Origin: Nemertoderma westbladi
Taxonomy: Eukaryota; Animalia; Xenacoelomorpha
Assembly: GCA_032718475.1 (NCBI GenBank)
Contig: JAUCBJ010003479.1
Location: forward strand, 1-63,639
Length of the DNA stretch: 63,639 nucleotides
Reading direction: 5' to 3'
Numbering within the stretch: the stretch's first letter is position 1; each line of letters opens with the position of its first letter. The notes under the pieces are model-generated. The model made no database searches, had not been told where the DNA came from, and saw only the letters and a program-made list of their open reading frames with translations. Of this stretch, positions 9,746 through 55,430 are shown one piece after another. Made by a program: the position numbers and the translations under genes.

Positions 9746-11015
9746 TGTAAAAGCTTCTGTGGGATATAACTGGCCCTTTTGCTTCGCAATCCAGTTTCCC
9801 CCCCCCCCCCAGGCGCTGGAATACTCTAAAAGGTTCTCTAACTGTATATATATTCCCCTCGCCCGCAAGGTACCGTTATAGGTGTTTTAACGGACATAAA
9901 AGTCCTTCTGCTATATACGTGTTTTGGCGGACATGGTAAGGCAAAAAACCTGCAATGTACCAAATACCTTTACACAGCTTAGCCTTGATGATTCAGATTG
10001 CGACATCTAGCAGCTGGTTGCTGGCATGGAAACAGCCATTGGACGCAGGGTTCTTTGTTTGGCTTGAGCCAATCAGAGCGATTTTTTCTGTCGACGTGTA
10101 GATATTTGGTCGATCATGCTGGGAGTGTTCAGTCTTACTGTTTTTTTAGTGATACTTTGTGTTATTGCTATCTGGGCCAGGAACACCGGCTAGAGTCAAC
10201 TCGGTTTCATACTTTAGAAGAAACATTTGTAGGCTTAAATTATAGAGCGTATAACCGTTATCATAACTTATCACATCACTTATCTAATCATATCAACTGA
10301 TCGCAATTCAGTCGTACATTATCGGTTCAATATACATTATTATACTGCTATTTACTATTGTTTGGTTGAATATTATTTGGAGAACATTTATAAAGAACCC
10401 AAATTTCCCAATTTTCTTGATACACTACAGGTTAGAGAGACGGGTTATATATAGCGATTGCGACTTATATTATTGTGTATGTAGTGAATTTAATGCTATT
10501 TGATAAGCACTACATTGGTCCGTTGCTGTTCTCTTTATATATGATAAAAATCATTGACGGTCGGCAAATTAGTGGGCAGTATTGTGTGTTACCGGTAGTG
10601 TGCATGATTGTGACTGATAACGAAGCATTTCCTAAAGAATGCGCCTTATACGTGAATCATAAGCCTTACTGTTGCGTGTAGTATAAGTCATATCTCTGTT
10701 TACCTAGATAGAGCGCCACGTCGTAAAGGAACTGTTAATATTTCCCGAAAGTGAATAATATTAGTCAGAAATTATTTATTAACGATCAATCGAATAATAC
10801 AATACAGTAAGCTTCACTGCAATAATAATCTGAGCCCTCAGAATCCAGTCTCCCGGGTATATCCAGCGGGTGAATGGACGCGCACTAGGCTGGCTTCTGC
10901 TAATGTTGTTTTTATTGGTATTAAATATTTGTCATCTTCTAAAGTCTATTTATAAACCAAAAGACATATAAATTTTGGCAGGTTAAACTGCTAAAGGTCT
11001 TCAAAAGCGCTTACA
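9746..11015 (+). repeat. LTR1 (1270 bp)
   Basis: Runs TGTAAAAGCTT...AAGCGCTTACA. It is nearly identical to 27389-28652: about 10 substitutions seen by eye plus a C13 vs C7 run. Confidence 0.95.
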
Positions 11016-11081
11016 ATAACGGTTATTGACTTTATTGCAGTAAGCAATAAAGTTGAAAGTACCGGTCGACCGGTAAACCTG

Positions 11082-11910: not shown

Positions 11911-13248
11911 TATTTTGTTTGAGTATTCTGTACGGGTAGCGTAATATTTATTATTCAGAGTTTATGCGATTATTCGCAACATTCATGTCCCCAAGTTTAT
12001 TCCTACAGTAATTGTGTTTGTTACACATACCGTTATAGTTAAATTAACCCCGGTACTACACGGGCTGCTTGGCGTAGGTAAAGACTGGTGATTTCGTGCA
12101 CTGGTCACTCCAGCAGATGCCGTGGTTCTTTTAACTGTTCAAGTATATTTAACTACTGATTATTTGTTGTACCAGTACTTGTACCTAATTTAGGGTTTAG
12201 TGTACAGTGCTTTCCGAAAGTAATTAGTGTGTAGGCAGTATATTTGTGTTGTAAAGTGGTTAATAGGCACGTTGGATCTGGTAGTCCGCGGTAATTAACT
12301 TCCAGGTAGGAACACTCCGTGATACATAACGTAGTACCTATAGCGATACGGCTATAGGTCGTCAGGCGGTGGTATTTTCCTATCTGGACAGTGCAATATA
12401 TTTACTACTACTTATTATTTTCAAATACCGTAGTACCCTGTCCGTTGTAATAACCAGAATTCTAACCCTTTGTTAGGCTGGTTTGTAGACTTCCTGTAAA
12501 ATTACCCTAAAAATTTCGTACGTAATATTTTGTTGTGTTTAATTAGAGAATTAATCTCACCCGTATCGTAAGTAATTTGTAGTATTAAGTAACTTAGGAA
12601 AATTAGAATAATCTGTTTTAGTGTCAAATAAGTAGCACTCCACTGAGAGCGCACAGCTTCTGTGTAGTGACCCCAGAAATAATAACATTTATTTCAAATA
12701 TTGACAAAATCCATTTTAAACGGGTATATAAATATTATAAATCAACTCAAACGATTTATAAATAGTAGGCCTGCCATACAACAACTAGGTCTCAATATCA
12801 GTTGGACTACTGCTTAAATAACGGTAACAAAGTAAGTTAAAGTAACCAAGTAACCCTAAAATATTCAGAAATTCAATTATTCTAAAATCATTGATATACC
12901 GGTATTTACCATAGGCTTATTATATTTATTTCTATAAATTTGAGCTAAAATCATACCGGTATTCTGTAATTAATTCTAGTTCATAATTATACTTATATAT
13001 ACTATAAGTGTAGGCTGTATACCGGTATTCACGATAGGCCTATTATATATTTATATATATTTGTGCTAAATTTATATACCGGTACTCTGTGACAAAACTA
13101 GTTTACAATACTTATATATATTATAAGTGTATACCGGTATTCTAATATACTGCAATAAATTACTGGTACTAGGCCAACGGTCATACTGAATTACTAGACT
13201 TGCTTTAACTGTAACTATAGCAGTAAGCATTCAACTGTATAGCTAAAC

Positions 13249-16200
13249 ATGTCTGACACTCAGCAAAACCTGTCAGACAGTCTAATCGATACAACCATCT
13301 GTGACACAGATAGGAGTGTGGAGCGATTAAGAAAGGAGTTCAGCTCACCTCCTACTGAAAGAAAAGTCATCCCTCCAGTAGTGGTATCGGACCCTAAGCT
13401 AATCCAACACCGTAGGTCTATCATCGGCACTCGGGCCCAAGTCAAACGGAACCAGGAAGCAGCTGTCCCACAGCAGCAACAGCCTAGTCAAGAAACTTGT
13501 TCCCAGCGATCCGATAGCTCCAGTAGTTCGGATACTGTCGAGCTGACCCCTGAACGCGGATTACGGATGGCGGCTAAAGCCTACTCGAACCCCCTTCTCA
13601 CCCTTCCTGCCGCAGTGCTAACTACTATATTGATTGCGGTGGAGGAACATCAAGCCGATTGGGCGAGAAATAAGCGAGCGACCCAAGATAATTATGCGGG
13701 ATATGCCAGGGAAGAATTGATGTCTATTGTCGAGTCACAATGGAACTTTCCCGGACCCGGACTCCCGTTAGATTTGTCCGAAGCTACTTGGGAAGACATA
13801 CACAGGATGGGAGTGACTAAAGATACAATGGATCCAGCTGTTTGGAAGAGGTCGGCAGCAGGATATGTGCAGGGATTCTTCGGCTCCTTAGAGCGATTAG
13901 AAGAACAACTGTTTCGACAACCCCAAGGACCTCAAGAGCAGGAAGAACTGCTATACCAAGTACGCGAAAGAACCCTACGCATTCGACTAATCCTATCAGC
14001 CTTTGAGGAAACTTCCAAAAGAAGACAGGACACGTCGCTGCAAGTTGCTGTCAAAACTTGGTTCCAGCGGGTAGGTCGCAAAGTACAAGAAACGGACCAG
14101 TGGAAATCCCAGCTGTCTGAGAGGCTAACCTATGAAGAACCAACCGATGCCACCCTTCCTCAAGTGGAAGGCGAAGAGACCGCAGAGAGACCACGAACGA
14201 GAGACGCCATAGATATTTATCTGTCCGACTATCAGCGATTCCTAGGAGACGAAGAGTTGAGGAGACGGCTGTCTGGACTCTCCCCTAATAGTGAAGGAAC
14301 CCAACGTGTGTTAGACTCAATCGATGCTGAAATGTTAGCTGCTAACCAAGCAGAATTTGATGAAAAACTCCGCCTCGCTAGAGTCCAAGAAGAACAAGTA
14401 AAGAAAAGACGGATAGAGGAACAAAAGGCGGCAGCTATGGCAGAAGCAGAAGCAGAAAGAAAGGCAGCGGCGGCAGAAGCAGAAGCAGAAAGAAAAGCAG
14501 CAAAGGCAGCGACGGCAGAAGCAGAAGCAGAAAGAAAGGCAGCGGCGGCAGAAGCAGAAGCAGAAAGAAAAGCAGCAAAGGCAGCGGCGGCAGAAGCAGA
14601 AGCAGAAAGAAAGGCAGCGGCGGCAGAAGCAGAAGCAGAAAGAAAAGCAGCAAAGGCAGTGGCAGAAGCAGAACGGAGAGCCTCTGAGCAGACTACCCAA
14701 CTGGAGTTGGAAAATCTGCAAGAGACGCAAGACAACATAAATAAACAGTTAACTGCTAGTCAAATGCAGATGATGAGACGATCTACTCCCAAACGCCAGG
14801 GATACACATCATCGGAGGAAAGCGAAACCACCGATCCTGAAGGCGGAGGAAATAGATCTCGTCTAAGCAGGCGTAGAAAAACATCTCGCCGTCACAAATT
14901 GCCTGATTTGCCCCCAGCTGTTAGAAGACAGCTAGCTAGCACAGACTTAGGTAGTACGGAACCCGCATACCAAACTATTCAGGTCAAAAGACTCCCTACA
15001 ATAGTTGATGAGCCTGAAATAATTAGGCCTGTCATTCCCAAAGTCACTTCTGTGTTAGAGACCCCTGTACTTCCAGAGCTCAACTCTAAATTCCCTTTAC
15101 ATAGTACTACACTGCCTGTACCCGGTAGAACAGTCCAAGAGAATATCCCTGTCCTGATAGCAGAGAGAGAAATCAAAGATTTGTCTCCCGTCGTCCCACA
15201 TCAGCCCGCTACAATGTTGGCGACTCCCGCTTCGGCGGTCGAGTGGGTAGAAGAGGGACGGCGGGGGATGAACCTCCTGCTCGGACAGATGCAGGAGACT
15301 GTCCACCAACTTAAGGGAACAGTAAGGGAAGGTAGGGCAGAATTGCAAGAAGTGCAGCAAAGTATCGCACTGGAACGCGACAAATTAGTCAATATACAAA
15401 AGGGCATACCAATACCCCCTGTAACATTGTGTCAACCTGTTAGGTCTGAAGTATTACATGCGCAAGGTGTGGAGCCTACACGCATCTATACTGCTAGTGA
15501 AGTAGAAACTCCTATAGCAAACCCTATTAAGGGTGATTATAGACCTGTTATTAATGATATTCCCTATAGACCTGATAATGATCCGAGAAATTTATATACC
15601 GATAATTCGATATTAAATAACACGATGGCCCAAGAAAGCTTTACGCGTCAGATGGCTAGAACAGAAGCCCGCCAAGCGGTCAAAGTGGGAGAGATCGTTA
15701 AATTCAATGGAGATGAGATGAAATGGTTACCTTTCAATGAATATTACAAAGATAGCATACAAAACTCTGTACTATCTCAGGAGAGAAACTTAGGTTCCTC
15801 ATCAAGTGCTTGGAAGGACCTCCCAGGTTAATGGCGTTAAAGTTTATTGGACATCCAGAAGGATTAAGACAAGTATGGGATACATTAAACATCAGGTATG
15901 GTAACAAGGATAACATAGCTAAGTATTTGTATGCAAAATTAGTAGCCCCCCGACACTTCCTTAGTAGCGGGATTATAGAGTTTTCCGATGAGATTCAAGA
16001 GATCTGTAGACAATTGGACTGGTTAGGTAAGTCTCATGAATATCAGAGTTCCATGGTTATTGGAGCAGTAGTCTCTACTTTACCAAAGGGTGGAGTATGT
16101 ACACGCTGGGACAAGAAAGTGTTGTACCTGAATGAACAACAACGACGAAGTCCTACCATGGCTGATCTCATGTCTTTCTTAGATGGTGAAGTAAAACTAC

Positions 16201-19200
16201 AGCTCATCAAGCAGTCCAGAGAGAAAACATCGGAAAATAAGGTAAGTGAGAAACCCGCTTCTAGGAGAAGAGTAACACCGGTGTGTTACACTGACGACGG
16301 CGAACGCCAAGCTTCTCAAGAAGAGGACAGCGGGAAAGACACTGAGAGATCTTACTACGTTGAAAAAACCTCAAAAGATGTAAGTAAATACAAGGCTCGA
16401 AACAACGATAGGAGAGAACAGGTTGCCAAGACCCCTCCTCAGTCTCCTAACAGAATACACCGAAGAAAACCCGAAGAAAAAACGAGAGTGCATCAAGTTA
16501 CCCAAGGTAAAGTGAGTAACATAAAACCTAACTGTGCGCTGTGCGACGGGACCCACCGTTTGAGTGCGTGTGCTGAATTTCTAAAGAAATCCCTTGTAGA
16601 CAGACGTGCAGTCGTATGGGATAAGCGGTTATGCTATAATTGCCTCAGACCAGGACACCAACGGCGAACCTGTTACTCCGACATAAAGTGTGCAAAGTGT
16701 GGCGCGAAACATCACATCTTGTTACACAGTGAGTTCGAACGAGACAAAATGAGTCAGGTAAGTGAGCCCGAACTACATGTCCAATTCAGTGATGTAAACG
16801 ACACTGATCAAGAATCTGAGATGGAAGGATTCTATACTGACGAATTCTCCGACGCCAACGAATCCTGTTATCTAATCAATACCGCAGTGTATCGAGCACT
16901 TACTTATGAAAAGGACACCAACAATGAGTTTTCCCCAACTACTTTTGCCAAACAACCATCTTGGAAAGCTCCAACTTCCAACGTAGGAATCAGAGAATTT
17001 CCTGTAGTGCAGGTAAGAGTTCACAGTCTTAACAAAAGTTACATAGTGAACGCCCTCCTTGACTCCGGCAGCACAGGAACATTCATCGATCAAGAACTAG
17101 CCGAAGATATCTTTGCTGGACAACCCAAGTTCCGGACTAAATTGAATATGTCAGGAATTATGCAGGTTTGGAAATCTACCGTAACGGCAGATTACTATGT
17201 AGGTGTGTTGTCCACCCCCCAGGATAAGTTAGGAGCACAAGGTATAAGGTCGGTAAAAATGGTGGCTATAAAGAACTTCGCTACTACTCAAGCAGACCTT
17301 TATAATTGGGACGAGGATGAGAGCATCCAACATCTTAAGATACCTCGATTCCAGACAGATTATCCTGGAGTGCAAATACTCATCGGCCAAAACGCGCATG
17401 AAGCGCTCGAAACATTGGAGAAACGGCCTGCTCAACCACAGCCACTGCAAACCTATGCGGTAAGAACTAGAGTAGGTTGGTACTTTACTGGCCCTTCCCG
17501 CAGGACTCTCGAAGAGAGAATGCCCCAAGAACAAATATACCAAGTAAACGATTGGGAAGTGGAGAGCAGTGAGGTGGACGAACTAACTGAGGGAACACCA
17601 TACTCCTCAGATAATGACGACATCTACCAACTCTTCGATGAAGAGAACACAATCGACCTACTTACAGAAAACCAAACTTGGAAAAATCAGGTGAACCTAT
17701 GTCAACTGATTCGCCCATCAGAACCCATCGCTTACAATGACGAACTCAACGATGAGATAGAGCGCTACAACGCTAGAACTCGGGACGAACTAGCCGTACG
17801 ATTCTTTACTCAGGAACTGGTAGAGCCCAATTCATATGATAAGGCTCTATCGATAGAAGAAGAAAGAGCCAAGCAAATCCAGGAAACAACTACACGTTTT
17901 TTAAAAGACCAAGGTAGATATGAAATCGGCCTACCATTTCGAAAACGAGAACCTAGATTTATAAATAACAGACCTTTGGCAGAGAAAAGAATCGCTCAAT
18001 TACATCGACGACTTACAGCTAATGCTTCAGCGAAAGAAATGTACCAAACTCAGCTGAAGAAATTTATAACAAAGGGATACGCGGAGCGAGTACCCGAAGG
18101 AACACCAGTGACTGAGAGAACGTATTACTTAACGCATCATTACGTTCCCAAACCCGGTAAACCACACGAAGTACGAGTCGTATTCTATGGCTCCGCCCTA
18201 TATATGGGCCAATCCCTCAATTCCGAGTTGTTACCAGGACCCAACTTACTCCAATCTTTGTTGGGAATACTTTTAAGATTAAGACAATATTCCATCGCGT
18301 TCGCCTCAGATATAGAAGGAATGTTCTTACAAGTCAAGGCGCTGGATAGAGATAGAGACAGCCTGAGATTTCTGTGGTGGCCTGAAGGAGACCTCAATCA
18401 GAAACCGGTAGAATACTGGATGACCATCCAGGCCTTTGGAATCATATCAAGCCCTTCCAACGCCTGCTCCGTGGTGCGAACCACTGCGAATGACAACCGA
18501 GACTCCTTCTCAAAAGAGGTGATAGACAACATCAAACGGAATATATACATGGACGACAATTTAAGGTCCCTTCCATCAGTAGAAGAAGCCATAGCTGTCG
18601 CGAAAGGAACGGTAGAGTGTTTGAAAAGAGGTGGATTTAGACTAACGAAATTCACCAGCAACTCCCGTGAGTTTCTAGAAGCGATACCGGTAGAAGACCG
18701 CGGAGCGAAAGACCTAGACTTAATAAAGGACGATCTTCCTGAAACCAAGACGCTAGGCTTGAAGTGGGACACTGAAAGAGACATCCTGTTTTTTCAGTTA
18801 AAACAGCGAGATAATCCAGTTCGGACCAAACGGATTTGTTTAAGTATTCTGAGCACTTATTTCGACCCATTGGGATTCATTAGCCCAGTTATATTGATTG
18901 CTCGCTGCTCGGAGTTTAGTACAACAAATGTGGCTTGAAAACCACTCATGGGACGATCCGCTTAAGGGAGAATTGTTAAGGAAATGGATGAAATGGGAAG
19001 ATTCTCTACCTGCCATCGAGAACTTTATAATTTCCCGTGCATATTTTGGCCATGTTCTCCCTACGTACTCTTATCAACTCCATGTGTTTGGAGACGCCAG
19101 CGACATGGGAATAGGTATAGTAGCATATCTGCGAGTCGAAACTCCGGATGGGATCAAGGTCGCCTTGGTTACCTCTAAGGCATTGATTAACAACAAGTTA

Positions 19201-21436
19201 AAGGTTCCTCGAGCGGAGTTAAAGGCAGCTTTATACGCTACAGCCATCGGCCGGAACGTAACGGAACAAATCGACTATCCACTGGAGAAAACGGTTTATT
19301 GGACCGACGCTTTACTCGTGTTGGAGTATCTAACCAATGAAGTCTGTCAGTTCAGCGTTTTTGTTACTAACTGAGTAGCTATTATTCTTAGTCGCACAAA
19401 GATAGATCAATGGAGACATTGCCCTGGTACGATTAATCCAGCCGATATCACCTCCAGGGGAGCAACTCCACAGGAACTGATAGATACTCCAGATTGGTTG
19501 GGTGGACCCGACTTCCTGAGCAAGGAAGAGGATGAATGGCCTCCTCACCTTACTACGGCAGAGATTAGACAAGCCAATGGAGCTGAGACAGTCAAACCTA
19601 AAACCCGGGCGAGTAAATCGAAGTTATTTAAACCGACTATCGATCTATCTGTATTACATACTTCCGGGAATGATGCTTCGGATCCACAATCCCTCAACAC
19701 AAATAAGTCTGTTGTGGAAATTAGAGATAAAGATTGGAAATCTGGAATACCAGACGTCTCGCAAGGAATCTCACCCATGCTGCAGAGAGCAATGCATCAT
19801 TACAGTTCCTGGAATCGGCTCTGTAAAGCCGTCACATATTTAAGACGATGTTTTCATCATCACTACTCCAGGACGAAGACCACTAGTGATACCGCTCCAT
19901 TGACATCTGCACAAGTTCATGTTATTAAAAATTTACCCAAATATAAGACATCTGACCGTTTTCTAAAGGAGAAAATTAGTCACCAGGAGCATGAAGAAAC
20001 CAATAAGCAGGTACTGAGACTCCTGCAATGCTATGAGGATCCCGAAAAGTATTTCCTGTTGTTAAGAAATCCGCAGATGCGCTTAAGGGATCGATTCTCG
20101 AGCACAATGATAGATGGGTTAATACGTGTTGGAGGAAGACTCACCAATGCGCCCTTATCCTTTGACACCAAATTCCCCATACTTATTAGAAATCTTGAAG
20201 TACAAATCAAGATGATTGTAGATGTTCACAGTAAACTTTATCATGCTGGCAGAGAACGATTCTTAGCGAAATTCGAACTCGCTATTATTTTAATAAACCC
20301 CGTAGAGCTCTGAACCAAGTTCTTAGGAACTGCATACCCTGTAGGAAAGCATTCAGTAGGCCTTTAACACAGCGAGAGGCAGAATTACCTAGGGAACGAG
20401 TAAGCTTCTATGAACCACCTTTTACTAATACTGGTGTAGATTTATTTGGCCCTATTGAAGTATATCGTGCGAGGACTATAGTCAAGAGATGGTGTGTCAT
20501 CTTCGTGTGCATGACTTGTAGAGCCATCCATCTCGATATGGTGAACGATCTATCTACCAACAGCTTCGTCTTAAGTTTACGACGACAGATCGCTCGCTTC
20601 GGGACGAGTAATACCATGAGATCGGATAAGGGAACGAACTTCATTGGTGCCAACAACGAAATACAGGCTTACGTGAAGGACTGGAACCAAAGACAGGGGA
20701 CGACCAGCTAAGGATAACAGCATCTAGCTGGACCTTCAACGCCGCCGACGCCCCTTGGTGGGGAGGAAGTTGGGAGAGATTAATTCGAAGTGTCAAAACC
20801 GCATTTCACTTTATAGTGCCATGCCGCGCGTATCTCACCGACGAACTTTTGCGGACGTTAATGGAGGAAATCGCTGCCTATCTCAACGAGAGACCGCTTA
20901 TGCCAGTCTCATCGAGTCCCGATTCCCTGGAAGCGCTAACACCCGCGCACTTCCTACTGAAGAAACCTGTAGCCATGCTCCCACGATCGGAGATTGCCGA
21001 CGGAGACGAATACTGCCGTCGAACTTGGCAGCTTATGCAGTTGCTATCCCGTCGTTTCGCTGACCATTTCGAGAAACATTATCTGCCCACGCTACAACTT
21101 CGAACTAAGTGGTTTGCGCAGCAAGAAAACGTCAGCGCCGGAGATATGGTGCTTATTGTAGATCCAGACCTCCCACGTAAACGGTGGCAGACAGGTCGTA
21201 TCATCGAGACCCACATCTCGGAGGATGGTTTAGTGCGCTCAGTAGAACTTGTCGTCATGCGGCGTAATTTCAAGAAGCCAGGCATAATCTTTGAGACGCA
21301 ACAACTCAATTGCCCAGTTGGTCGTTTATGTTTACTGGAAAGAGACAGAGAACTCTTTGGAAACTATGGAAGGCAAGACACTCTTCCCACGACCACCTCC
21401 CTAATTCCTCAAACATCTAGGGACTCCCTAACGTGA
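13249..21436 (+). pseudogene. gag-pol: BEL/Pao gag-pol polyprotein, disrupted by ~4 frameshifts and 1 stop
   Basis: Gag core KFNGDEMKWLPF; three knuckles CALCDGTHRLSAC, CYNCLRPGHQRRTC and CAKCGAKHH. Protease ALLDSGS (17061); RT SDIEGMFLQV and YMDD (18546); RNase H HVFGDAS, RAELKAA, WTDA and NPAD. Integrase HHCC plus GVDLFGP, SDKGTNF and GGSWERL. Breaks at ~15783, ~18900, TGA 19372-19374, ~20270 and ~20695. Confidence 0.96.
14437..14675 (+). repeat. Coding minisatellite in gag (AEAEAERKAAA / AEAEAERKAAKAAA), predicted long helix or coiled coil
   Basis: Repeated GCAGAAGCAGAAGCAGAAAGAAAGGCAGCGGCG units in frame. Confidence 0.93.
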
Positions 21437-22864
21437 TACGTCTGGAGTGGGTGTATGACTATATTGTTTTATCTAATTTATTATATTTTTATATGCGAAC
21501 TTTATTATGTACTTTATTATAATCGTTTTTATTCAATTTTATTTAGTAAAATGTTATTTAGTGATTATTTAGTAGATTAGTGCAATATATTAGTGTTTAT
21601 TACGTACGTAATTACTTAATATATATTTAGTGCGACGGCGAGAAAATAATTATTTTTCTCTTTCCTTACTGTCCGTATCATATTATAAATACGTGACTAC
21701 AGTAAGATGAAATGTCCGTACTTCTTAAAGTACAATAAAGCCACTACTATATTCAAGTATTATTGGTAGGCAGAGTATTAGGAATGCAAAGTTCAGATCC
21801 TCGTGTCTCGGCTAAACCAAGCTCTGGGTAGACCTTGGAAACGACTTGCCTCTTCACACTGACATTGCTTCGTGCGATATTGCTCTTCTACCTTATATTA
21901 AATAATACACATAGTAGCGTGATGTCCCTCTAACAGTAGCGTAAAACGCAAATAAATCTGTTAAACTTTTTGACCATCTGTAATTCTAGTCGATTAAGAT
22001 ATCGCGGCACCCACCGATATACTTGAAAGACAAATTCTAGAATCAGTGGTTAACGTCCCCAGACAAGTTCTGGAATAAATCGGTGCCCATCTTAAATATT
22101 AATTTAATATTTATTAAGATCTGTAAAATTCAGATCCGTTAACAATTCTAGTCGATTAAGATATCGTAGCACTTACCGATACTCTTAAAAGACAAATTTC
22201 ATAGAATTAAGGATCCTATGTCACCAGACCTGCTCTGGAATCAAATTGTGTCAATTTTAACATCAAATAATACAATTCACGGGAATAAATTTAAATTCAT
22301 ATTTTAAATGAATTTCATAAATTGTCATTTTGTACAATTTATAACATTCCCAAAATTCCATTAATTAATAGATCATGGGAGCGGAGATTCATCCTATTGA
22401 GTGTATTAGAGTGCGAGAATCTCCAACATATAGTCAATAGCCGATAAAATTAATAAAATCATGCATAAAGAGGATATTGACAATTAAAGAATTATTATTA
22501 AATAGCATCCCAGATCTGTATGCATGAGAATTAACCTAATTCTACCGCTAGCATTCCATAATGTCACCATAGCAACACCCACGCTAGAATTAGAAGCAAG
22601 TTAAAAGAACAATAGAAGGCTTATCCCATTGCATAGCATAGAATATAGCACACTGCTAGTATCCAAGGATACACAGTAATAACGTGACATTCTGGAAGGC
22701 ACTGACTAACGGACAAATGGCCTGTATGTGTGCAGTTGGTGACAGTTGTGTGGAATTTGTGCGTTTATAGGTGAATGTTACTGCTAAAGTATGTTTACAG
22801 TAGCTAGTCGCAATTGTAAAAGTAGCCCAACTCTCCTATAGAAAGAACCTAAGTGGATCCAAGC

Positions 22865-22986
22865 CTTTGGGACGGACAGTGGAGTAACTTGTGCCGGTTA
22901 TCGTTGTCGTGCTGTTGCTACATGTTGGCGTAAACACCGCGACGACGGTACATCGGCGCTGAGAATCCCACTGTCCGGGGGCAAAG
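22865..22986 (+). other. Long imperfect RNA hairpin upstream of the accessory ORF
   Basis: Nested pairings: CTTTG/CAAAG; CGGACAGTGG (22873-22882) with CCACTGTCCG (22968-22977); GTGCCGGT/ATCGGCGC; TATCGTTGTCGTG/CGCGACGACGGTA; TGTT/AACA; GCTA/TGGC. Several pairs are G-U. Confidence 0.8.
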
Positions 22987-23057
22987 AGAAGTAGGCAGCG
23001 ACGCCCGCTCGCCTAAATACAAACTTATTTGGATATTAATAAACTCAGATAGCAGAT

Positions 23058-26000
23058 ATGACGGAGTTGATAGAAGATGATCTTGGTATTAGGGAGCGAT
23101 ATACTCTACCTTTACAAGCATTTGTAGATAGCTTAATACGCGGTGAAGCCGATCCAACCATTACGGAGGACGATGGTCATTATATCGAACCGCCGATGTC
23201 CCAAGAGCAACTTGCGCGTGAATTGGACTATCGAAAATTCACCGCTCGCTATACGAATCGTAATGGTACGTATATGGACTTCTTAACTACCGGCCATCCT
23301 ATCGATTTGCATGATACGGACGATGTAGATACAGAGAGGGAAATGGTTCTATTTAAATATCATACCCAGCGGAGTCGTAACGATAAACCGAGAATAGATC
23401 ACGAAAATTCTATTCGTAATCGACTGGAAAGAGAAAACGTTGAAGAACCGGATAAACGCATCGACTTCAACGAATACCTAGAATTTTTGAGAGAAACCTA
23501 TCTCAACATCGCCAGTCAGCAGAACTTAGAGACTCGATATCCTCAAGGTATACATCACGACCCTGTGGTAGAACTCAAACGGCTCTATTTCACTATGATG
23601 TATCTTACCGCCGATCGTCCACTACCTGTTATCCCGGATAGTTTTGAACAAATGGAAGAATACTGCAAAACTGGAGAACGTTCACCCGCGTTTCCTCTAC
23701 AGGACGTACGTCTTTGGTATTATTGTGACGAATGCCCTAGACCCAACCAACAAACGGAAAGACACAAACATCCGCGGAGACGTTGCGCTAAACATAGTTT
23801 TACGCATTACACTTACGGGAGTTTCGAGCGAAACCTGTTCGACATACCACCCATGATCGCTCGTCTTAAACGATCACTGAATAAATCCATGATCAGAGTT
23901 CCGGAATACTCGGTCAGGCCTCCTCATTCCCTAGTGAGACCTCAAACTCTTGATCCTAACAGTATCACTGATCCTCCCGAACTATATTCCCTGTTCAAAG
24001 ACTTAGTGTTACCCGAACAATTAATCGGTGGTGCTCCGGTAGTAGGTTCGTTAGACATCCGCCCATCCTACTTAGCCGGATTGGGACGCGGGCAGCTAAT
24101 ATCGCCCTTTGATCCTTACAATCGTCCAGGATTAAACCCGATGCAACCCGCCACGGAAGTCGAGGAGAGCGTTATAAGAAACGCTTTAGACGCCATTCGA
24201 CAGAAAATCGGAAAGGGAACACAAGATTGTTTAGAGAAACGTAAATTACAACAACAAGTCCAATCGGTGAAGGAGTTAGCCTTGCCACAGTTCGATAGAG
24301 AAATCCAAAACCTCGAGGAAGACATCGAGCTTGGACGCACGTATTCTCTACAAGAATTTTTAGATGAACGCTTACAGAGACAAGCGGAAGAAAATCTAAT
24401 CGAAGAGAAACACACGAAACTGGAAGAAAGAGAAGAAGCCGCTTTAGCCCAACCTGAAGCTCAAATCCTCATGACAGACCTCTACTCTAAAACCGTTCGT
24501 CATCCCTCGATGATTCCACATTTCGGAGACAAGCTCTTCGCGACGATACAGCCTCAACCGGTTGATATCAGTACAGGATCGCAAAATCTTATCGCTGACG
24601 CCCCTATGTTACAGCGTCCGCCGATCGAGGCCGCTCGTGTTGACGGTATACTCGTTGAACCTCCGGACAATCGAGCGGATCTTGTCCGTCGTATGGTACA
24701 TGATGTCAACATACGCGCTAGACCTTTACAGAACTCGTTTTATGGGATTAAAGACCACCCTTATTACGTTAATCTGACTCAATATTATATGGTAAAACCA
24801 GAAGACCCGACGCATAATTTAAAGTTTCTACCACTAATAAATCCTCTAGACATTGTCGAACTCGAACAATTGCAGAAACATCTGGATCAGTTAGTAAAGG
24901 TAAACTCATTTAGAAAACCATATAACATTTCTCGAATCGAGAAAGATATAGAACCTCCTTATAATCTCGATGGATTTATTAAAACTCGATTAGTCCATTG
25001 GAATCTAGATGTATTATTTGAAGAAGAGAAAATACAAAGATATGGAAATGTGGAGACGTATACCACTCGGCATATGAAGTATAGTGATCTCCCTGACGCT
25101 AACCAATGCGCCACCTTGTGGCATCCAGTAGGGATGACCCTAGAGAACGCCACCAAGGAGTGGAATGAAACTCTTAATGTTATTGAGATGTATGGAGTTG
25201 TCACCTACGATAATGAAGGTAGCGTTCCGGTCGGAGAACTAGGAACTACGCGCATGATTCACATACGCGGATTAGCTGGTTCTACCCACGTGTTTACTCG
25301 AGCGTGTTCCGACGTGATTGATTATTCCTTTGAAACTCTCACCGAAACACAAAAGAATCTCCGACATGGACAATTCGAACTCGCGCAGCGTTACGTCATT
25401 GACACCGAACGCAAACCGGCCATGGGCATCGATGGATCGATGTTACCCCAGCCCGTACTCGAAATGTTGTTCAACGAAAGAATCCTTAAAATCGGCTCAG
25501 CTGTTTATGGAGATCTCCAAAACGACTTTCGGAATATGGAGGACATTCCATACCCTTTCGTTGATACTCAGCTGATTGCTCCCTGGGCAGAAGGTCGAGG
25601 TTTCTTCCGCACCATGTATGCTAATACGCCTAGCAACATTACCAAGGTGCAACGAACTTCCATCGGACATCTCGCCTTTCAGGAATACGGATGGAATTTC
25701 AAAGTCGGAAATCCCATTAACTATCAACAAGTATACGGAGACCATTATTCTCGATTATACTTTGATGGACCATTGACCGCACCTGGCGCCGTGTATAGCT
25801 TCATGAGTGTTCCACTCCGTCCCTCCTTAGCTATATACACGATCTTTGAAAACACCGCACTTGCCGGTTGGCTAGCCGATGTGTGCAGTCGTACTATACG
25901 CGCCCATCCATTAATACTTGGGACCAAACTCGCTAAGCTAGATGAACATAATAAATTCATCCGTTTCGAATGTTTCCGGCGATTTTTAACCCCGTTCCAC

Positions 26001-27310
26001 AACGTGGATAGCCAATTTAAAGACCGCGCTTTGACCAAGCTCAGCCTAAGAGACTCAGCTGCAGAGAAGTTGGATAGCGCTGGATTCGCCGTTTTCCAAG
26101 AGATTTGTATATCAAACTTACACTCCTCTGTTATACAAAGACCTCGAATCCCCACAGGTTATTCTGTCGTGGAAATTCAGACAATAGGTCCACCTGAAGA
26201 GACAGACGCGCCCACTTCAGCTATGCACTTGGAAGACGAACCAATATGTTTAGAATCTGAAGAGATTCAGCCTATCGCGCCCCAGACCAGCGACAATGAT
26301 TACATCATAGAATGGTATCAAGGTCCACAGTGTCTCACTGCGTACGATTATCGAGATGCCAACTATGTTTCTAGGCAACGTTGTCGGTTATGCGCATCGA
26401 GAGACCACGATACGCCCATGGACACAACGTCCGCTGTTCCTATTTCCAAGAACAACCGACTATGGAAATTTATTGCGCATATTGCAGACTCAATAACTTG
26501 CATATCTTTGCGGTTTGCCCCCAATTTATGACTCAATGTCACCATTGTCAACTAAAGGGACATGCCAGTTTCGATTGCCCCTTTAATCACGATTTGGAAA
26601 GCGTAGATGAAATGATCACACTACGTTACATCAGAGCTTGGGAAGCGAACGCTGATTTACATTGTGATTCGCGCCATCGCTATTATCCCGGACGCGCTTA
26701 CGAAGGAGTTTATGCGTTCCATCCTTATCTATTCGCTTCGGTTGAACAGAAATCACGCATATCAAGTTACGAGCTACTGAAGCGCGTTGGAGAATGTATT
26801 TCAACCAAATTCGTACGCAAATTTCTCAGGAGTGTTAATCCTAGCGACCTTCATTCCTATAACTTAATCAATTATATCCGTCAGGATCCGGACTATGGAG
26901 ACTTGTTTGTTAACTCACACCCCGAGTTACAGTAAGTACATCGACGGCCTTACGAATACCGAGCCCGCGAACGCGAGTTGGAAAGGACCATTAAACCCCG
27001 GAGGTTTCTAACTGCTTATGGTCCACCCACGGCCCTCGTTCAGACCACTCGTAAAGGACCCGTAAGAGCGGCTGTCTTGAAACGAGCTCTCAAAGCCGTT
27101 AGACCCCTCTCCCCTGACGTTGATGTCAATCAACCCGGTACTTCGACTGGCGGATACACCGACCATAATCCTACACCCTCTGATGCAATCATATTGCACC
27201 CTTCACCCAGGAGTTATAGCCCTCCTTGTAAAGTGGCTCGCCCCAAAGAGAAAAAGACTCTGGCTAGCTTTAAGAAACTGCGTAAACGCCGTCCGCGCAA
27301 GAAAGACTAA
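23058..27310 (+). CDS. Accessory ORF (~1400 codons reconstructed): DEDDy 3'-5' exonuclease-like domain, CCHC zinc knuckles and a basic NLS-like tail; one frameshift and one in-frame stop
   Basis: ExoI-like VVTYDNEG (D at 25209, E at 25215). ExoII-like LPQPVLEMLFNERILKIGSAVYGDL (D at 25512), then FVDTQLIA and SIGHLAFQEYG. ExoIII-like RPSLAIYTIFE. A -1 shift at ~26413 leads into CAYCRLNNLHIFAVCPQFMTQCHHCQLKGHASFDC. After TAA 26933-26935 the same frame stays open to KKLRKRRPRKKD* at 27310. Confidence 0.82.
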
Positions 27311-27388: not shown

Positions 27389-28652
27389 TGTAAAAGCTTC
27401 TGTGGAATATAGCTGGCCCTTTTGCTTCGCAATCCAGTTTCCCCCCCAGGCGCTGGAATACTCTAAAAGGTTCTCTAACTGTATATATATTCCCCTCGCC
27501 CGCAAGGTACCGTTATAGGTGTTTTAACGGACATAAAAGTCCTTCTGCTATATACGTGTTTTGGCGGACATGGTAAGGCAAAAAACCTGCAATGTACCAA
27601 ATACCTTTACACAGCTTAGCCTTGATGATTCAGATTGCGACATCTAGCAGCTGGTTGCTGGCATGGAAACAGCCATTGGACGCAGGGTTCTTTGTTTGGC
27701 TTGAGCCAATCAGAGCGATTTTTTCTGTTGACGTGTAGATATTTGGTCGATCATGCTGGGAGTGTTCAGTCTTACTGTTTTTTTAGTGATACTTTGTGTT
27801 ATTGCTATCTGGGCCAGGAACACCGGCTAGAGTCAACTCGGTTTCATACTTTAGAAGAAACATTAGTAGGCTTAAATTATAGAGCGTATAACCGTTATCA
27901 TAACTTATCACATCACTTATCTAATCATATCAACTGATCGCAATTCAGTCTTACATTATCGGTTCAATATACATTATTATACTGCTATTTACTATTGTTT
28001 GGTTGAATATTATTTGGAGAACATTTATAAAGAACCCAAATTTCCCAATTTTCTTGATACACTACAGGTTAGAGAGACGGGTTATATATAGCGATTGCGA
28101 CTTATATTATTGTGTATGTAGTGAATTTAATGCTATTTGATAAGCACTACATTGGTCCGTTGCTGTTCTCTTTATATATGATAAAAAACATTGACGGTCG
28201 GCAAATTAGTGGGCAGTATTGTGTGTTACCGGTAGTGTGCATGATTGTGACTGATAACGAAGCATTTCCTAAAGAATGCGCCTTATACGTGAATCATAAG
28301 CCTTACTGTTGCGTGTAGTATAAGTCATATCTCTGTTTACCTAGATAGAGCGCCACGTCGTAAAGGAACTGTTAATATTTCCCGAAAGTGAATAATATTA
28401 GTCAGAAATTATTTATTAACGATCAATCGAATAATACAATACAGTAAGCTTCACTGCAATAATAATCTAAGCCCTCAGAATCCAGTCTCCCGGGTATATC
28501 CAGCGGGTGAATGGACGCGCACTAGGCTGGCTTCTGCTAATGTTGTGTTTATTGGTATTAAATATTTGTCATCTTCTAAAGTCTATTTATAAACCAAAAG
28601 ACATATAAATTTTGGCAGGTTAAACTGCTAAAGGTCTTCAAAAGCGTGTACA
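27389..28652 (+). repeat. LTR2 (1264 bp), shared: 3' LTR of unit 1 and 5' LTR of unit 2
   Basis: Runs TGTAAAAGCTT...AAGCGTGTACA and is followed by the same leader (ATAACGGTTATTGAC...) as LTR1. Confidence 0.95.
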
Positions 28653-30885
28653 ATAACGGTTATTGACTTTATTGCAGTAAGCAATAAAGTTGAAAGTACC
28701 GGTCGACCGGTAAACCTGAACCGGTACTTCTGTAGGTCCGTAGGCCCAACTGCCAGAACCGGTACTGCTGTAGGTCCGTAGGTCCAACTGTCAGAACCGG
28801 TACTTCTGTAGGCCTGTAGGCCCAACTGTCCTAACCGGTACTTCCAGTATAAGTACATTAGTATTATTCGATTTTGATTACTGTATACTGGTAGGTCTTA
28901 GTATTTAATCAGGGACTGCAGCCCTGGTTTTTTATTGAGATTTTACTCATTTCTGTCGGTTTTATTTACATGTAAGTTAATATTGAGCTGAAGACGTGTA
29001 AGTCTGCTCAGATTGTTCAGATAATTGTAGGCCGGACTGTTGTTAGATTGTTGTTGAGTTTGGAGAGATTACGGCGTGTGTAGAGTTTGTCCGATAGAGT
29101 GCCAGTTAGTAAGTTGGGGCAGCCATAGCTGTAAGGTCAATCCCCTCTTAAAGAATAAGTCGTACTATCGTGTTAGAACGCATACTAACTAACAATTTTG
29201 GAATCTGCACATACTGTAGTTTATTTAGGCTTGACAGTATTCTGCCAGCGCTTTGGCCTGTGTTTGTTTGTGTGGTCTGTTCAGGTACCGTAATAGTTAT
29301 TACTCAGATATTTTGTAGGCTGGATTGTTGTCTAGCTATTATTAGGTCTGAAGAGATTGCTGCGTGTGTAGAGTTTGTCCGATAGAGTGCCAGTTAGTAA
29401 GTTGGGGCAGCCATAGCTGTAAGGTCAATCCCCTCTTAAAGAATAAGTCGTACTACCGTGTTAGAACGCATACTAACTAACCATTTTGGAATCTGCACAT
29501 ACAGTAGTTTATTTAGGCTTGGTGGTAGTCTGCCAGCGTTTGGTTTGTATTTTGTTTGAGTATTCTGTACGGGTAGCGTAATATTTATTATTCAGAGTTT
29601 ATGCGATTATTCGCAACATTTATGTCCCCAAGTTTATTCCGACAGTAATTGTGTTTGTTACACATACCGTTATAGTTAAATTAACCCCGGTACTACACGG
29701 GCTGCTTGGCGTAGGTAAAGACTGGTGATTTTGTGCACTGGTCACTCCAGCAGATGCCGTGGTTCTTTTAACTGTTCAAGTATATTTAACTACTGATTAT
29801 TTGTTGTACCAGTACTTGTACCTAATTTAGGGTTTAGTGTACAGTGCTTTCCGAAAGTAATTAGTGTGTAGGCAGTATATTTGTGTTGTAAAGTGGTTAA
29901 TAGGCACGTTGGATCTGGTAGTCCGCGGTAATTAACTTCCAGGTAGGAACACTCCGTGATACATAACGTAGTACCTATAGCGATACGGCTATAGGTCGTC
30001 AGGCGGTGGTATTTTCCTATCTGGACAGTGCAATATATTTACTACTACTTATTATTTTCAAATACCGTAGTACCCTGTCCGTTGTAATAACCAGAATTCT
30101 AACCCTTTGTTAGGCTGGTTTGTAGACTTCCTGTAAAATTACCCTAAAAATTTCGTACGTAATATTTTGTTGTGTTTAATTAGAGAATTAATCTCACCCG
30201 TATCGTAAGTAATTTGTAGTATTAAGTAACTTAGGAAAATTAGAATAATCTGTTTTAGTGTCAAATAAGTAGCACTCCACTGAGAGCGCACAGCTTCTGT
30301 GTAGTGACCCCAGAAATAATAACATTTATTTCAAATATTGACAAAACCCATTTTAAACGGGTATATAAATATTATAAATCAACTCAAACGATTTATAAAT
30401 AGTAGGCCTGCCATACAACAACTAGGTCTCAATATCAGTTGGACTACTGCTTAAATAACGGTAACAAAGTAAGTTAAAGTAACCAAGTAACCCTAAAATA
30501 TTCAGAAATTCAATTATTCTAAAATCATTGATATACCGGTATTTACCATAGGCTTATTATATTTATTTCTATAAATTTGAGCTAAAATCATACCGGTATT
30601 CTGTAATTAATTCTAGTTCATAATTATACTTATATATACTATAAGTGTAGGCTGTATACCGGTATTCACGATAGGCCTATTATATATTTATATATATTTG
30701 TGCTAAATTTATATACCGGTACTCTGTGACAAAACTAGTTTACAATACTTATATATATTATAAGTGTATACCGGTATTCTAATATACTGCAATAAATTAC
30801 TGGTACTAGGCCAACGGTCATACTGAATTACTAGACTTGCTTTAACTGTAACTATAGCAGTAAGCATTCAACTGTATAGCTAAAC

Positions 30886-32217
30886 ATGTCTGACACTCAG
30901 CAAAACCTGTCAGACAGTCTAATCGATACAACCATCTGTGACACAGATAGGAGTGTGGAGCGATTAAGAAAGGAGTTCAGCTCACCTCCTACTGAAAGAA
31001 AAGTCATCCCTCCAGTAGTGGTATCGGACCCTAAGCTAATCCAACACCGTAGGTCTATCATCGGCACTCGGGCCCAAGTCAAACGGAACCAGGAAGCAGC
31101 TGTCCCACACCAGCAACAGCCTAGTCAAGAAACTCGTTCCCAGCGATCCGATAGCTCCAGTAGTTCGGATACTGTCGAGCTGACCCCTGAACGCGGATTA
31201 CGGATGGCGGCTAAAGCCTACTCGGACCCCCTTCTCACCCTTCCTGCCGCAGTGCTAACTACTATATTGATTGCGGTGGAGGAACATCAAGCCGATTGGG
31301 CGAGAAATAAGCGAGCGACCCAAGATAATTATGCGGGATACGCCAGGGAAGAATTGATGTCTATTGTCGAGTCACAATGGAACTTTCCCGGACCCGGACT
31401 CCCGTTAGATTTGTCCGAAGCTACTTGGGAAGACATACACAGGATGGGAGTGACTAAAGATACAATGGATCCAGCTGTTTGGAAGAGGTCGGCAGCAGGA
31501 TATGTGCAGGGATTCTTCGGCTCCTTAGAGCGATTAGAAGAACAACTGTTTCGACAACCCCAAGGACCTCAAGAGCAGGAAGAACTGCTATACCAAGTAC
31601 GCGAAAGAACCCTACGCATTCGACTAATCCTATCAGCCTTTGAGGAAACTTCCAAAAGAAGACAGGACACGTCGCTGCAAGTTGCTGTCAAAACTTGGTT
31701 CCAGCGGGTAGGTCGCAAAGTACAAGAAACGGACCAGTGGAAATCCCAGCTGTCTGAGAGGCTAACCTATGAAGAACCAACCGATGCCACCCTTCCTCAA
31801 GTGGAAGGCGAAGAGACCGCAGAGAGACCACGAACGGGAGACGCCATAGACATTTATCTGTCCGACTATCAGCGATTCCTAGGAGACGAAGAGTTGAGGA
31901 GACGGCTGTCTGGACTCTCCCCTAATAGTGAAGGAACCCAACGTGTGTTAGACTCAATCGATGCTGAAATGTTAGCTGCTAACCAAGCAGAATTTGATGA
32001 AAAACTCCGCCTCGCTAGAGTCCAAGAAGAACAAGTAAAGAAAAGACGGATAGAGGAACAAAAGGCGGCAGCTATGGCAGAAGCAGAAGCAGAAAGAAAG
32101 GCAGCGGCGGCAGAAGCAGAAGCAGAAAGAAAAGCAGCAAAGGCAGCGACGGCAGAAGCAGAAGCAAAAAGAAAGGCAGCGGCGGCAGAAGCAGAAGCAG
32201 AAAGAAAAGCAGCAAAG
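30886..32217 (+). pseudogene. gag: Truncated second gag copy fused to LTR3 by an internal deletion
   Basis: Near-identical to 13249-~14575 and breaks inside the AEAERKAA repeat. The last residues (PIRAIFSVDV) are read from LTR sequence. Confidence 0.93.
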
Positions 32218-33164
32218 CCAATCAGAGCGATTTTTTCTGTCGACGTGTAGATATTTGGTCGATCATGCTGGGAGTGTTCAGTCTTACTGTTTTTTTAGTG
32301 ATACTTTGTGTTATTGCTATCTGGGCCAGGAACACCGGCTAGAGTCAACTCGGTTTCATACTTTAGAAGAAACATTAGTAGGCTTAAATTATAGAGCGTA
32401 TAACCGTTATCATAACTTATCACATCACTTATCTAATCATATCAACTGATCGCAATTCAGTCTTACATTATCGGTTCAATATACATTATTATACTGCTAT
32501 TTACTATTGTTTGGTTGAATATTATTTGGAGAACATTTATAAAGAACCCAAATTTCCCAATTTTCTTGATACACTACAGGTTAGAGAGACGGGTTATATA
32601 TAGCGATTGCGACTTATATTATTGTGTATGTAGTGAATTTAATGCTATTTGATAAGCACTACATTGGTCCGTTGCTGTTCTCTTTATATATGATAAAAAT
32701 CATTGACGGTCGGCAAATTAGTGGGCAGTATTGTGTGTTACCGGTAGTGTGCATGATTGTGACTGATAACGAAGCATTTCCTAAAGAATGCGCCTTATAC
32801 GTGAATCATAAGCCTTACTGTTGCGTGTAGTATAAGTCATATCTCTGTTTACCTAGATAGAGCGCCACGTCGTAAAGGAACTGTTAATATTTCCCGAAAG
32901 TGAATAATATTAGTCAGAAATTATTTATTAACGATCAATCGAATAATACAATACAGTAAGCTTCACTGCAATAATAATCTAAGCCCTCAGAATCCAGTCT
33001 CCCGGGTATATCCAGCGGGTGAATGGACGCGCACTAGGCTGGCTTCTGCTAATGTTGTGTTTATTGGTATTAAATATTTGTCATCTTCTAAAGTCTATTT
33101 ATAAACCAAAAGACATATAAATTTTGGCAGGTTAAACTGCTAAAGGTCTTCAAAAGCGCGTACA
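32216..33164 (+). repeat. LTR3, 5'-truncated (949 bp; equals LTR1 10067-11015)
   Basis: Starts AGCCAATCAGAGCG, ends AAGCGCGTACA, and is followed directly by the TSD TAACA. Confidence 0.95.
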
Positions 33165-52174: not shown

Positions 52175-52341
52175 CTAATTAAAATATATTAATTTAAACA
52201 CATCACATTAAAAGTTGCGCTTTATCCAACCCTGGCCGTTCCGTTCCTACGTGTACTACAACATCCATTTTTGGCTTATACTCGTAGCGTAAACCATCCC
52301 CTCATCCTCTCTCCCGCCGTATAAACCATATTATCTACGTT

Positions 52342-55300: not shown

Positions 55301-55390
55301 TTGTATAACCATTCTCTCCCTTTGTATAACCATTCTCTCCAGCCGTATAAACCATTATCTCCCGCCGTATAAACCATTATCTCCCGCCAT
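52342..55390. repeat. 21-bp minisatellite (~3 kb, ~145 copies) in intron 2
   Basis: Unit TGTATAACCATTCTCTCCCTT, with interspersed TTAT/CTTT/ACCC variants. Confidence 0.98.
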
Positions 55391-55430
55391 ATATATAAAT
55401 ATATAATTTATTCATGTGTTATTGTTATAG

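What the first reader, a model, noticed from the sequence alone, without database searches (positions are those of the whole stretch)
25150..25890. DEDDy (WRN/EXD/Mut-7/RNase D-like) 3'-5' exonuclease domain inside the retrotransposon
Seen: motifs VVTYDNEG, LPQPVLEMLFNERILKIGSAVYGDL, FVDTQLIA, SIGHLAFQEYG and RPSLAIYTIFE occur in the canonical order. Established: the WRN-exo-type pattern is hhghDxE ... LPxxLxxLLxDxxIxKVG...D ... hDL ... SLxxL....G ... YAxxD. Three acidic residues are intact; ExoIII has YxxxE instead of YxxxD. Inference: it could trim small-RNA 3' ends (host Mut-7/Nibbler/EXD1 act in small-RNA pathways, so counter-silencing is possible), proofread RT on an unusually long genome, or mature the primer.
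Basis: partly seen in the sequence, partly recalled or inferred. Interest (0 to 1): 0.85.

Follow-up and report, generated by a model that had tools for sequence, protein, structure and literature searches.

The report
BEL/Pao retrotransposon carrying RNA-trimming exonuclease
An unusually long (19 kb), young BEL/Pao jumping gene carries, where an envelope gene would sit, a selectively maintained gene with a divergent RNase D/WRN-type nuclease domain that likely trims RNA 3' ends, a kind of cargo already described in rotifer retrotransposons of other lineages.

Summary
All five motifs lie in order in a 1,162-codon ORF3 (23043-26531) behind pol of an 18.9-kb BEL/Pao element with 99.2%-identical LTRs and a 5-bp target duplication. 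Pfam misses the domain. A two-sequence profile searched blind against 301 bacterial genomes lands on RNase D in 29 of 30 fetched loci; NCBIfam RNase D (E 0.004) and ESM Atlas agree. The ExoII segment is firm; ExoI (D723/E725) and ExoIII (Y932/E936) rest on motif and one relative, P0001, which shares the E-for-D ExoIII and C-terminal zinc knuckles. Among copies, 36 of 40 listed variants are synonymous (34% expected). The DnaQ-fold model was guided by RNase D sequences, so it is not independent; activity is untested. The element has no tRNA primer site; the 11 nt after the LTR pair perfectly with an LTR-internal segment (Tf1-like self-priming signature). Best reading (0.35): a packaged RNA 3'-trimming enzyme acting on the element's own RNA, possibly the self-primer. 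Rivals: counter-silencing (0.25), inactive RNA binder (0.22), proofreading (0.12). DEDDy ORF3s are published for rotifer Juno/Vesta; I found none for BEL/Pao. New variant of a known kind.

The parts
25113..25916 (+). DEDDy-type 3'-5' exonuclease domain of ORF3 (residues about 691-958): ExoI D723/E725, ExoII D824, ExoIII Y932/E936; two insertions relative to RNase D
23058..26531 (+). ORF3 from its first Met: about 690 residues without a family hit, the exonuclease, an acidic linker and the start of a zinc knuckle; no transmembrane stretch
26375..26935 (+). Overlapping frame with two further CCHC-like knuckles (one canonical at 26537-26578); inferred to be the C-terminal part of ORF3, separated by a frame break near 26.4 kb in this copy
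   Evidence: P0001 has exonuclease and knuckles in one protein
9746..11015 (+). 5' LTR, 1,270 bp, TGT...ACA, preceded by target duplication TAACA
10251..10261 (+). LTR-internal 11-mer, perfect complement of the primer-site position; candidate self-primer
11016..11026 (+). 11 nt directly after the 5' LTR, at the primer-binding-site position; no TGG within 105 nt
13243..21436 (+). BEL/Pao gag-pol (DUF1759, three knuckles, protease LLDSG, RT YMDD, Peptidase_A17/RNase H, integrase, DUF5641), broken into six frames in this copy
21437..23057 (+). 1,621-nt non-coding gap between pol and ORF3; how ORF3 is expressed is unknown
27389..28652 (+). Second LTR, 1,264 bp, preceded by a purine-rich tract; 10 mismatches to LTR1 in 1,264 aligned bases
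28653..33164 (+). Tandem partial second unit (leader and 5' part of gag) joined to a partial third LTR (32216-33164), followed by TAACA

Best explanation
ORF3 of this BEL/Pao element encodes a selectively maintained RNase D/WRN/EXD-type nuclease domain, likely joined to zinc knuckles, that is likely an active RNA 3'-to-5' trimming enzyme and likely works on the element's own RNA. Shown: the element's anatomy, the homology of the ExoII segment to RNase D, purifying selection among copies, the absence of a tRNA primer site, and the 11-nt self-complement. Inferred: the ExoI and ExoIII registers; two-metal catalysis with Glu as fourth acid; that nucleocapsid-like knuckles bring the protein onto the element's RNA; and that it removes unpaired 3' tails until it meets a duplex. 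The most specific candidate substrate is the self-primer, whose 3' end must stop at the 11-bp duplex next to the LTR end before reverse transcriptase can extend it.
For: RNase D homology by independent routes: TIGR01388 E 0.0042; 43 of 301 genomes match the two-row profile, 42 of them over the ExoII part, and 29 of 30 fetched loci hold an RNase D frame; ESM Atlas; a fungal-type transposon-like locus L002 over the PF01612 cut-off is retrieved by the same profile. D, E, D, Y and E are all shared with P0001 at about 30% identity. 36 of 40 listed variants are synonymous and none of the 4 others touches these residues. P0001's knuckles match HIV nucleocapsid at E 1e-4. Self-complement: 5 of 3,000 LTR shuffles, and 16 of 22,137 positions in the element region.
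Against: No activity, expression or packaging data. The fourth acid is Glu, not Asp. Tf1 makes its self-primer with RNase H alone (PMC7175516, passage) and this element keeps an RNase H region. Unchecked scan notes report the same self-priming signature in many BEL/Pao elements with no exonuclease mentioned, so the two features may be unlinked. The transcription start is unknown: of four starts tried, the duplex formed in the minimum-energy fold only for the RNA starting at 10251. The knuckle similarity between the window and P0001 is weak (E 0.087). Whether P0001 lies in a retroelement was not checked.
Confidence: 0.35

Rival explanations
1. Counter-silencing: the enzyme is active and trims or destroys host small RNAs (piRNA/siRNA precursors) or their cleavage products aimed at the element.
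For: Nibbler, EXD1, EXD2 and QIP are among the fold neighbours of the guided model; the family is very high-copy (2,236 contigs of run X1 on 721 bases) and this copy is young; a stand-alone ORF3 could act in trans. PMC5408684 raises a silencing role (passage).
Against: The fold neighbours cover the whole DnaQ superfamily at tied Z-scores and the model was guided. No small-RNA data. Mature piRNAs are 2'-O-methylated at the 3' end, which hinders such enzymes (recalled). PMC5408684 found no clear link between DEDDy ORF3 and copy number.
Confidence: 0.25
2. Pseudo-nuclease: the domain has little or no activity and serves as an RNA-binding or localising module, like Egalitarian or EXD1.
For: ExoIII has Glu for Asp, and a second register (Y918/S922) would remove the fourth acid altogether. 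Purifying selection shows use, not catalysis. EXD1 and Maelstrom are inactive DEDD derivatives (PMC5408684, passage). Unchecked scan notes describe dead exonuclease cargo in other elements.
Against: All four acidic positions and the Tyr are kept in both family members at about 30% identity; the shared 'ENT' fixes the Y932/E936 register against P0001. Asp-to-Glu at this position left much activity in Klenow fragment (recalled; a search for it found 0 papers).
Confidence: 0.22
3. Proofreading or cDNA-end trimming: the enzyme removes mismatched or untemplated 3' nucleotides from DNA during reverse transcription of a 17-18 kb RNA or before integration.
For: The element is about twice the usual BEL/Pao length (18,907 bp against 4.2-10 kb, PMC3118150 passage). 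WRN and family A polymerase exonuclease domains tie with RNase D in the fold search. Dada DNA transposons carry a DEDDy domain proposed to process 3' ends (PMC3706591, passage).
Against: It is a separate ORF, not fused to RT. In the 301-genome search the fetched hits were RNase D, not polymerase I. The passages read on the longer Ogre and Burro elements list no such domain (PMC6431247).
Confidence: 0.12
4. The resemblance is limited to a short RNase D-like segment and the region is not a complete DnaQ-fold domain.
For: No Pfam or PDB sequence hit; the unguided model failed (pLDDT 30.7) and gave no DnaQ match; significant matches cover only about 45-70 residues.
Against: P0001 aligns to RNase D at all three motifs and scores 0.94-0.95 in ESM Atlas; the guided model spans residues 8-268 against DnaQ domains at Z 8-9.
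Confidence: 0.04

Closest known systems
DEDDy-exonuclease ORF3 of bdelloid rotifer LTR retrotransposons Juno and Vesta, and of Athena/Terminon retroelements (PMC5408684; abstract and passages)
   Same: RNase D-like DEDDy exonuclease in the ORF3 (env) position of an LTR retrotransposon, no transmembrane stretch, one acid swapped to Glu, activity unproven.
   Different: The host element here is BEL/Pao (Juno and Vesta are gypsy-like; recalled). The signature is D-E-D-E here and 'DEED' there (their Fig. 1C alignment is not held, so registers could not be compared). The domain here sits in a protein of more than 1,150 residues with two insertions and C-terminal knuckles. Sequence relationship to the rotifer ORFs was not tested.
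Bacterial RNase D (TIGR01388; PDB 1yt3) and the PF01612 DNA_pol_A_exo1 group (WRN-exo, EXD2, Nibbler/Mut-7, RRP6)
   Same: ExoI D-x-E, ExoII L..L....I.K...A...DL.....P.P..DTQ, and a PL-x6-Y-x3-acid ExoIII helix.
   Different: Far below the family cut-offs (16.4 against 298.95 bits; no PF01612 hit); no HRDC domain was detected; Glu at ExoIII.
Dada DNA transposons of Laccaria and Ectocarpus with a DEDDy domain (PMC3706591; passages)
   Same: Transposon-borne WRN-like DEDDy domain. Locus L002, which resembles a fungal transposon, is the closest canonical match found (33% identity).
   Different: DNA transposons, with the domain inserted in the transposase and all four DEDD residues canonical. That L002 is a Dada element was not established.
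Tf1/sushi self-priming (PMC7175516 and PMC6317226; passages)
   Same: No tRNA primer site; exactly 11 nt after the LTR are complementary to an LTR-internal segment.
   Different: [quoted passage not shown] Here the transcription start is unknown and an exonuclease is carried.

Membership tests
DEDDy (DnaQ-like) 3'-5' exonucleases | ExoII Asp in the RNase D/WRN sequence context | tested here: met
   D824 aligns in HMM, profile-profile and MAFFT comparisons
DEDDy (DnaQ-like) 3'-5' exonucleases | ExoI D-x-E at the end of the first strand | tested here: met
   D723/E725 align with RNase D and P0001 in most FFT-NS-2 and E-INS-i settings but few L-INS-i settings; a strand precedes or covers them in both models
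DEDDy (DnaQ-like) 3'-5' exonucleases | ExoIII Y-x3-D | tested here: not met
   Y932-x3-E936; Glu also in P0001. A conservative variant, not the canonical motif
DEDDy (DnaQ-like) 3'-5' exonucleases | DnaQ/RNase H-like fold | tested here: inconclusive
   Guided model pLDDT 50.2, pTM 0.52; VIA Z 8.9-8.7, rmsd 4.1-4.5, 152-169 aligned; Foldseek best 1yt3 E 1.9e-3. The alignment held RNase D rows in a register I selected, so this is not independent; the unguided model failed
DEDDy (DnaQ-like) 3'-5' exonucleases | Metal-dependent 3'-5' exonuclease activity | not testable with these tools
   needs an assay
Pfam PF01612 / NCBIfam RNase D equivalog | Score above the curated cut-off | tested here: not met
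   no PF01612 hit at E<=1; TIGR01388 16.4 against 298.95 bits
BEL/Pao LTR retrotransposons | Gag DUF1759 with three knuckles; PR-RT-RH-IN order; Peptidase_A17; DUF5641 | tested here: met
BEL/Pao LTR retrotransposons | TG...CA LTRs, purine tract, short target duplication | tested here: met
Rotifer Juno/Vesta DEDDy ORF3 pool | Sequence clade membership and DEED signature | not tested
   the rotifer sequences were not fetched; the signature differs as written
Env glycoprotein ORF3 | Transmembrane segment or fusion-protein homology | tested here: not met
   highest 19-residue hydropathy mean 1.21; no Pfam hit
Tf1-type self-priming elements | No tRNA PBS; about 11 nt at the PBS position complementary to own LTR | tested here: met
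Tf1-type self-priming elements | The complementary segment is the 5' end of the transcript and serves as primer | not testable with these tools
   no run on record as RNA holds the stretch searched; start site unknown

The most novel reading that the evidence does not exclude
This BEL/Pao lineage has replaced tRNA priming by a self-primer that is finished by its own captured exonuclease: the ORF3 enzyme, brought in by its zinc knuckles, chews a 3' tail back to the 11-bp LTR:primer-site duplex and so creates the 3'-OH for reverse transcription. That would be a retroelement-encoded primer-maturation nuclease with a D-E-D-E active site.
Probability: 0.15. Interest if true: 0.85.

Novelty: new variant of a known kind. 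Interest (0 to 1): 0.52.

Why it matters
Enzymatic ORF3 cargo in LTR retrotransposons is known, but the paper that described it left the function open. This case extends it to BEL/Pao, in a high-copy, recently active family under strong purifying selection, with a new active-site variant and RNA-binding knuckles. The exonuclease domain is unbroken in this copy and can be assayed alone. The element also supplies a defined candidate substrate (an 11-bp duplex with a 3' tail), so the question of what retrotransposon exonucleases do becomes directly testable against small-RNA and DNA substrates.

Tried and rejected
No hit for the domain: Pfam, PDB sequences, two word-based protein searches, phage records (5 hits at E about 10), PHROGs (best E 0.057; an 'exonuclease' family at E 0.28). 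P0001 found only itself and one weak plasmid hit. Locus scans found no relative in viral contigs (and 125 for RT), in one of two metagenome scans or in prokaryote genomes by pattern; three enterobacterial genomes gave no match to the profile. The single-sequence model was unusable and its fold search gave only helical fragments, best Z 6.2: inconclusive. The N-terminal 684 residues and the knuckle frame gave no significant PDB sequence hit. No RNA holder was listed, which says nothing about expression; run X5 is only guessed to be RNA. No whole genome is held, so full-length copies, a codon-model dN/dS and covariation of the 11-mer could not be examined. No tRNA gene lies in the window. Rejected: env (no transmembrane stretch); a host gene lying by chance in the element (it is between near-identical LTRs and present in thousands of contigs); a decayed passenger (36 of 40 variants synonymous). 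Paper searches found no BEL/Pao exonuclease and no paper whose passages report BEL/Pao self-priming (passages of 3 of the 6 listed papers read), but the library lacks most subscription papers. I recall, unverified, that an exonuclease-like domain may have been noted in nematode Cer elements; the paper I tried was not held.

Full report
Observation. The five motifs are present, in order, in one + strand frame, 23043-26531 (1,162 codons, first Met at 23058). The candidate catalytic residues are D723 and E725 (ExoI), D824 (ExoII), and Y932 and E936 (ExoIII).

The element. The frame lies in a BEL/Pao LTR retrotransposon. Upstream frames hit DUF1759, Peptidase_A17 and DUF5641 and carry three gag knuckles, protease, RT YMDD, RNase H and integrase motifs in BEL order. 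LTR1 is 9746-11015 and LTR2 27389-28652, with 10 mismatches in 1,264 aligned bases. A partial tandem unit and a partial third LTR follow to 33164, and TAACA flanks the whole. LTR to LTR it is 18,907 bp; BEL/Pao elements are usually 4.2-10 kb (PMC3118150, passage) and occur only in animals (PMC3601003, passage). Gag-pol is split into six frames in this copy; I cannot tell decay from assembly error. ORF3 follows pol after 1,621 non-coding bases and has no transmembrane stretch, so it is not env.

Is it a DEDDy domain? Standard searches miss it: Pfam, PDB sequences and two word-based searches. An exhaustive search of 1.84 billion representatives gave one relative, P0001 (E 2.4e-6, 30% identity). 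Four lines then point to the RNase D/WRN group. (1) NCBIfam RNase D matches residues 803-848 at E 0.0042. (2) A profile of only the window domain and P0001 matched 43 of 301 bacterial genomes at E<=0.05, once each. About 15 would be expected by chance at that threshold, but 42 of the 43 fall on the ExoII part of the profile in frames of 287-467 codons. Of the 30 loci fetched, 29 hold a frame with the RNase D ExoI motif. 26 of these were scanned and all pass the TIGR01388 cut-off; three were given in the wrong frame and not rescanned; one locus is unrelated. (3) The same profile retrieved 2 metagenome loci from 365 pattern matches, one with a canonical domain over the PF01612 cut-off. (4) ESM Atlas lists 3'-5' exonuclease clusters at 0.90 for the window (138-148 shared features, below the 170 typical of same-family hits) and, for P0001, unnamed clusters at 0.94-0.95 and a PF01612 cluster at 0.94. 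An HMM of the fetched RNase D domains scores ORF3 at 21.2 bits against a best of 5.5 in 1,000 shuffles, and hhalign gives 96.5% over 60 columns; both use sequences selected by the query and are not independent.

Registers and fold. ExoII is firm. ExoI and ExoIII depend on alignment mode: all three motifs were in register in 6 of 240 settings and 1 of 16. ExoIII Y932 was in register in all 32 default-mode settings that included P0001; ExoI was in register mostly in other modes. P0001 itself aligns to RNase D at all three motifs, with YIYCE at ExoIII, and matches the window's YTIFE through a shared ENT. So Glu for Asp is a family feature, not damage to this copy. A second register (Y918/S922) cannot be excluded. 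A single-sequence model failed. A model guided by an 18-row alignment that I chose for its register reached pLDDT 50.2 (76-80 over ExoII, 53-65 over the ExoIII helix) and matched DnaQ domains: Z 8.9-8.7, rmsd 4.1-4.5, 152-169 residues, with polymerase I, RNase D and WRN tied; Foldseek's best was RNase D at E 1.9e-3. This shows compatibility, not proof. One partly independent detail: the model put a strand on residues 735-743, where the alignment had gaps, as did the unguided model.

Selection. The family is abundant: 2,236 contigs of run X1 lie on the 721-base domain. Of the 40 best-supported variants listed (111 more not shown), 36 are synonymous, against 34% expected for the same mutation types; rough omega 0.06. 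None of the four replacements touches the five residues, and no small indel was listed in the domain. The listed rows favour old shared variants and count sites, not events. Across ORF3, 22 of 30 listed variants are synonymous. Deletion forms exist: a 2,804-base skip removing the domain in 3 of 4 runs and a 266-base skip in one contig.

Architecture. P0001 has the exonuclease followed by three knuckles that match HIV nucleocapsid (E 1e-4). In the window one knuckle start lies at the end of ORF3 and two more in the overlapping frame 26375-26935; other copies show an indel at about this place. I infer one protein broken near 26.4 kb in this copy; the tail similarity to P0001 is weak alone (E 0.087). 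The genomic setting of P0001 was not examined.

Priming. No TGG follows LTR1 within 105 bases. The 11 bases directly after it (11016-11026) are the perfect complement of 10251-10261 in the LTR; 5 of 3,000 dinucleotide shuffles reach this, and 16 of 22,137 positions in the element region have such a partner. I noticed this after the fact, so the statistics are post hoc. An RNA starting at 10251 forms 10 of the 11 pairs in its minimum-energy fold; three other starts do not. Tf1 uses its first 11 bases this way, released by RNase H (PMC7175516, passage). A second BEL-like element at the window's left end has a 13-nt complement 4 bases after a presumed, unverified LTR end. Unchecked scan notes report this signature in many BEL/Pao elements; this is not independent support, and it lowers the odds that it needs an exonuclease.

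Mechanism. I commit to an active, knuckle-tethered RNA 3'-trimming enzyme acting on the element's own RNA, with the self-primer as the most specific candidate (0.35). Counter-silencing (0.25), an inactive RNA-binding module (0.22), proofreading or cDNA trimming (0.12) and a false fold call (0.04) are the rivals. Catalysis, expression, packaging and substrate are all inferred.

Comparison. DEDDy ORF3s are published for rotifer Juno and Vesta LTR elements and Terminons, with DEDD changed to DEED and activity not shown (PMC5408684, abstract and passages; PMC6431247 and PMC5718144, passages), and for Dada DNA transposons (PMC3706591, passages). Figures and supplements of these papers were not seen; the rotifer alignment could bear on the signature comparison. 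Six searches found no BEL/Pao case and the passages search of the BEL/Pao survey has no occurrence of 'exonuclease', but older subscription papers are missing and I recall an unverified mention for nematode Cer elements (could not check). It works like an RNase D/WRN-group exonuclease; it fails the canonical ExoIII motif and the curated cut-offs, so it is a divergent variant rather than a filed member.

Verdict. Real, selected cargo; new variant of a known kind; interest 0.52. The novel reading, an element-encoded primer-maturation nuclease, has probability 0.15 and interest 0.85 if true.

Noticed in passing
window 10251-10261 and 11016-11026 (also 27888 and 28653): No tRNA primer site; an exact 11-nt complement between the primer-site position and the LTR, as in Tf1 self-priming.
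   Followed up: partly
window 1-about 3800, minus strand: A second, different BEL/Pao-like element (DUF1759 gag at 1-1869) with tandem repeats in its leader, no TGG after a presumed LTR end at 3231 and a 13-nt self-complement near 3524; the LTR boundary is unverified.
   Followed up: partly
window 28653-33164: Tandem partial second unit; the jump from gag to mid-LTR falls on a short shared stretch, suggesting a deletion by template switch or recombination.
   Followed up: partly
window 23058-25109: About 690 N-terminal residues of ORF3 with no family hit; a possible Cys/His zinc site near residues 228-254 and a charged helical stretch near 380-470.
   Followed up: partly
window 26936-27310: A 124-codon basic frame ending in a Lys/Arg run just before the purine tract; no Pfam hit.
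   Followed up: no
window 11016-13242: A 2.2-kb leader with short tandem repeats near 11080-11205, a duplication of about 290 bp (11380-11959) and another near 12895-13142.
   Followed up: no
window 14380-14690: Gag contains an Ala/Glu/Lys-rich tandem repeat, predicted helical.
   Followed up: no
window 52195-55400: An array of about 150 copies of a 21-bp unit, open in several frames.
   Followed up: no
window 39636-40274 and 35775-35970: Inverted-repeat elements resembling foldback or MITE transposons.
   Followed up: no
L002 3145-3974 and L001 659-1088: Intron-split, canonical DEDDy domains in fungal-looking, transposon-like metagenome contigs; possibly Dada-related.
   Followed up: partly
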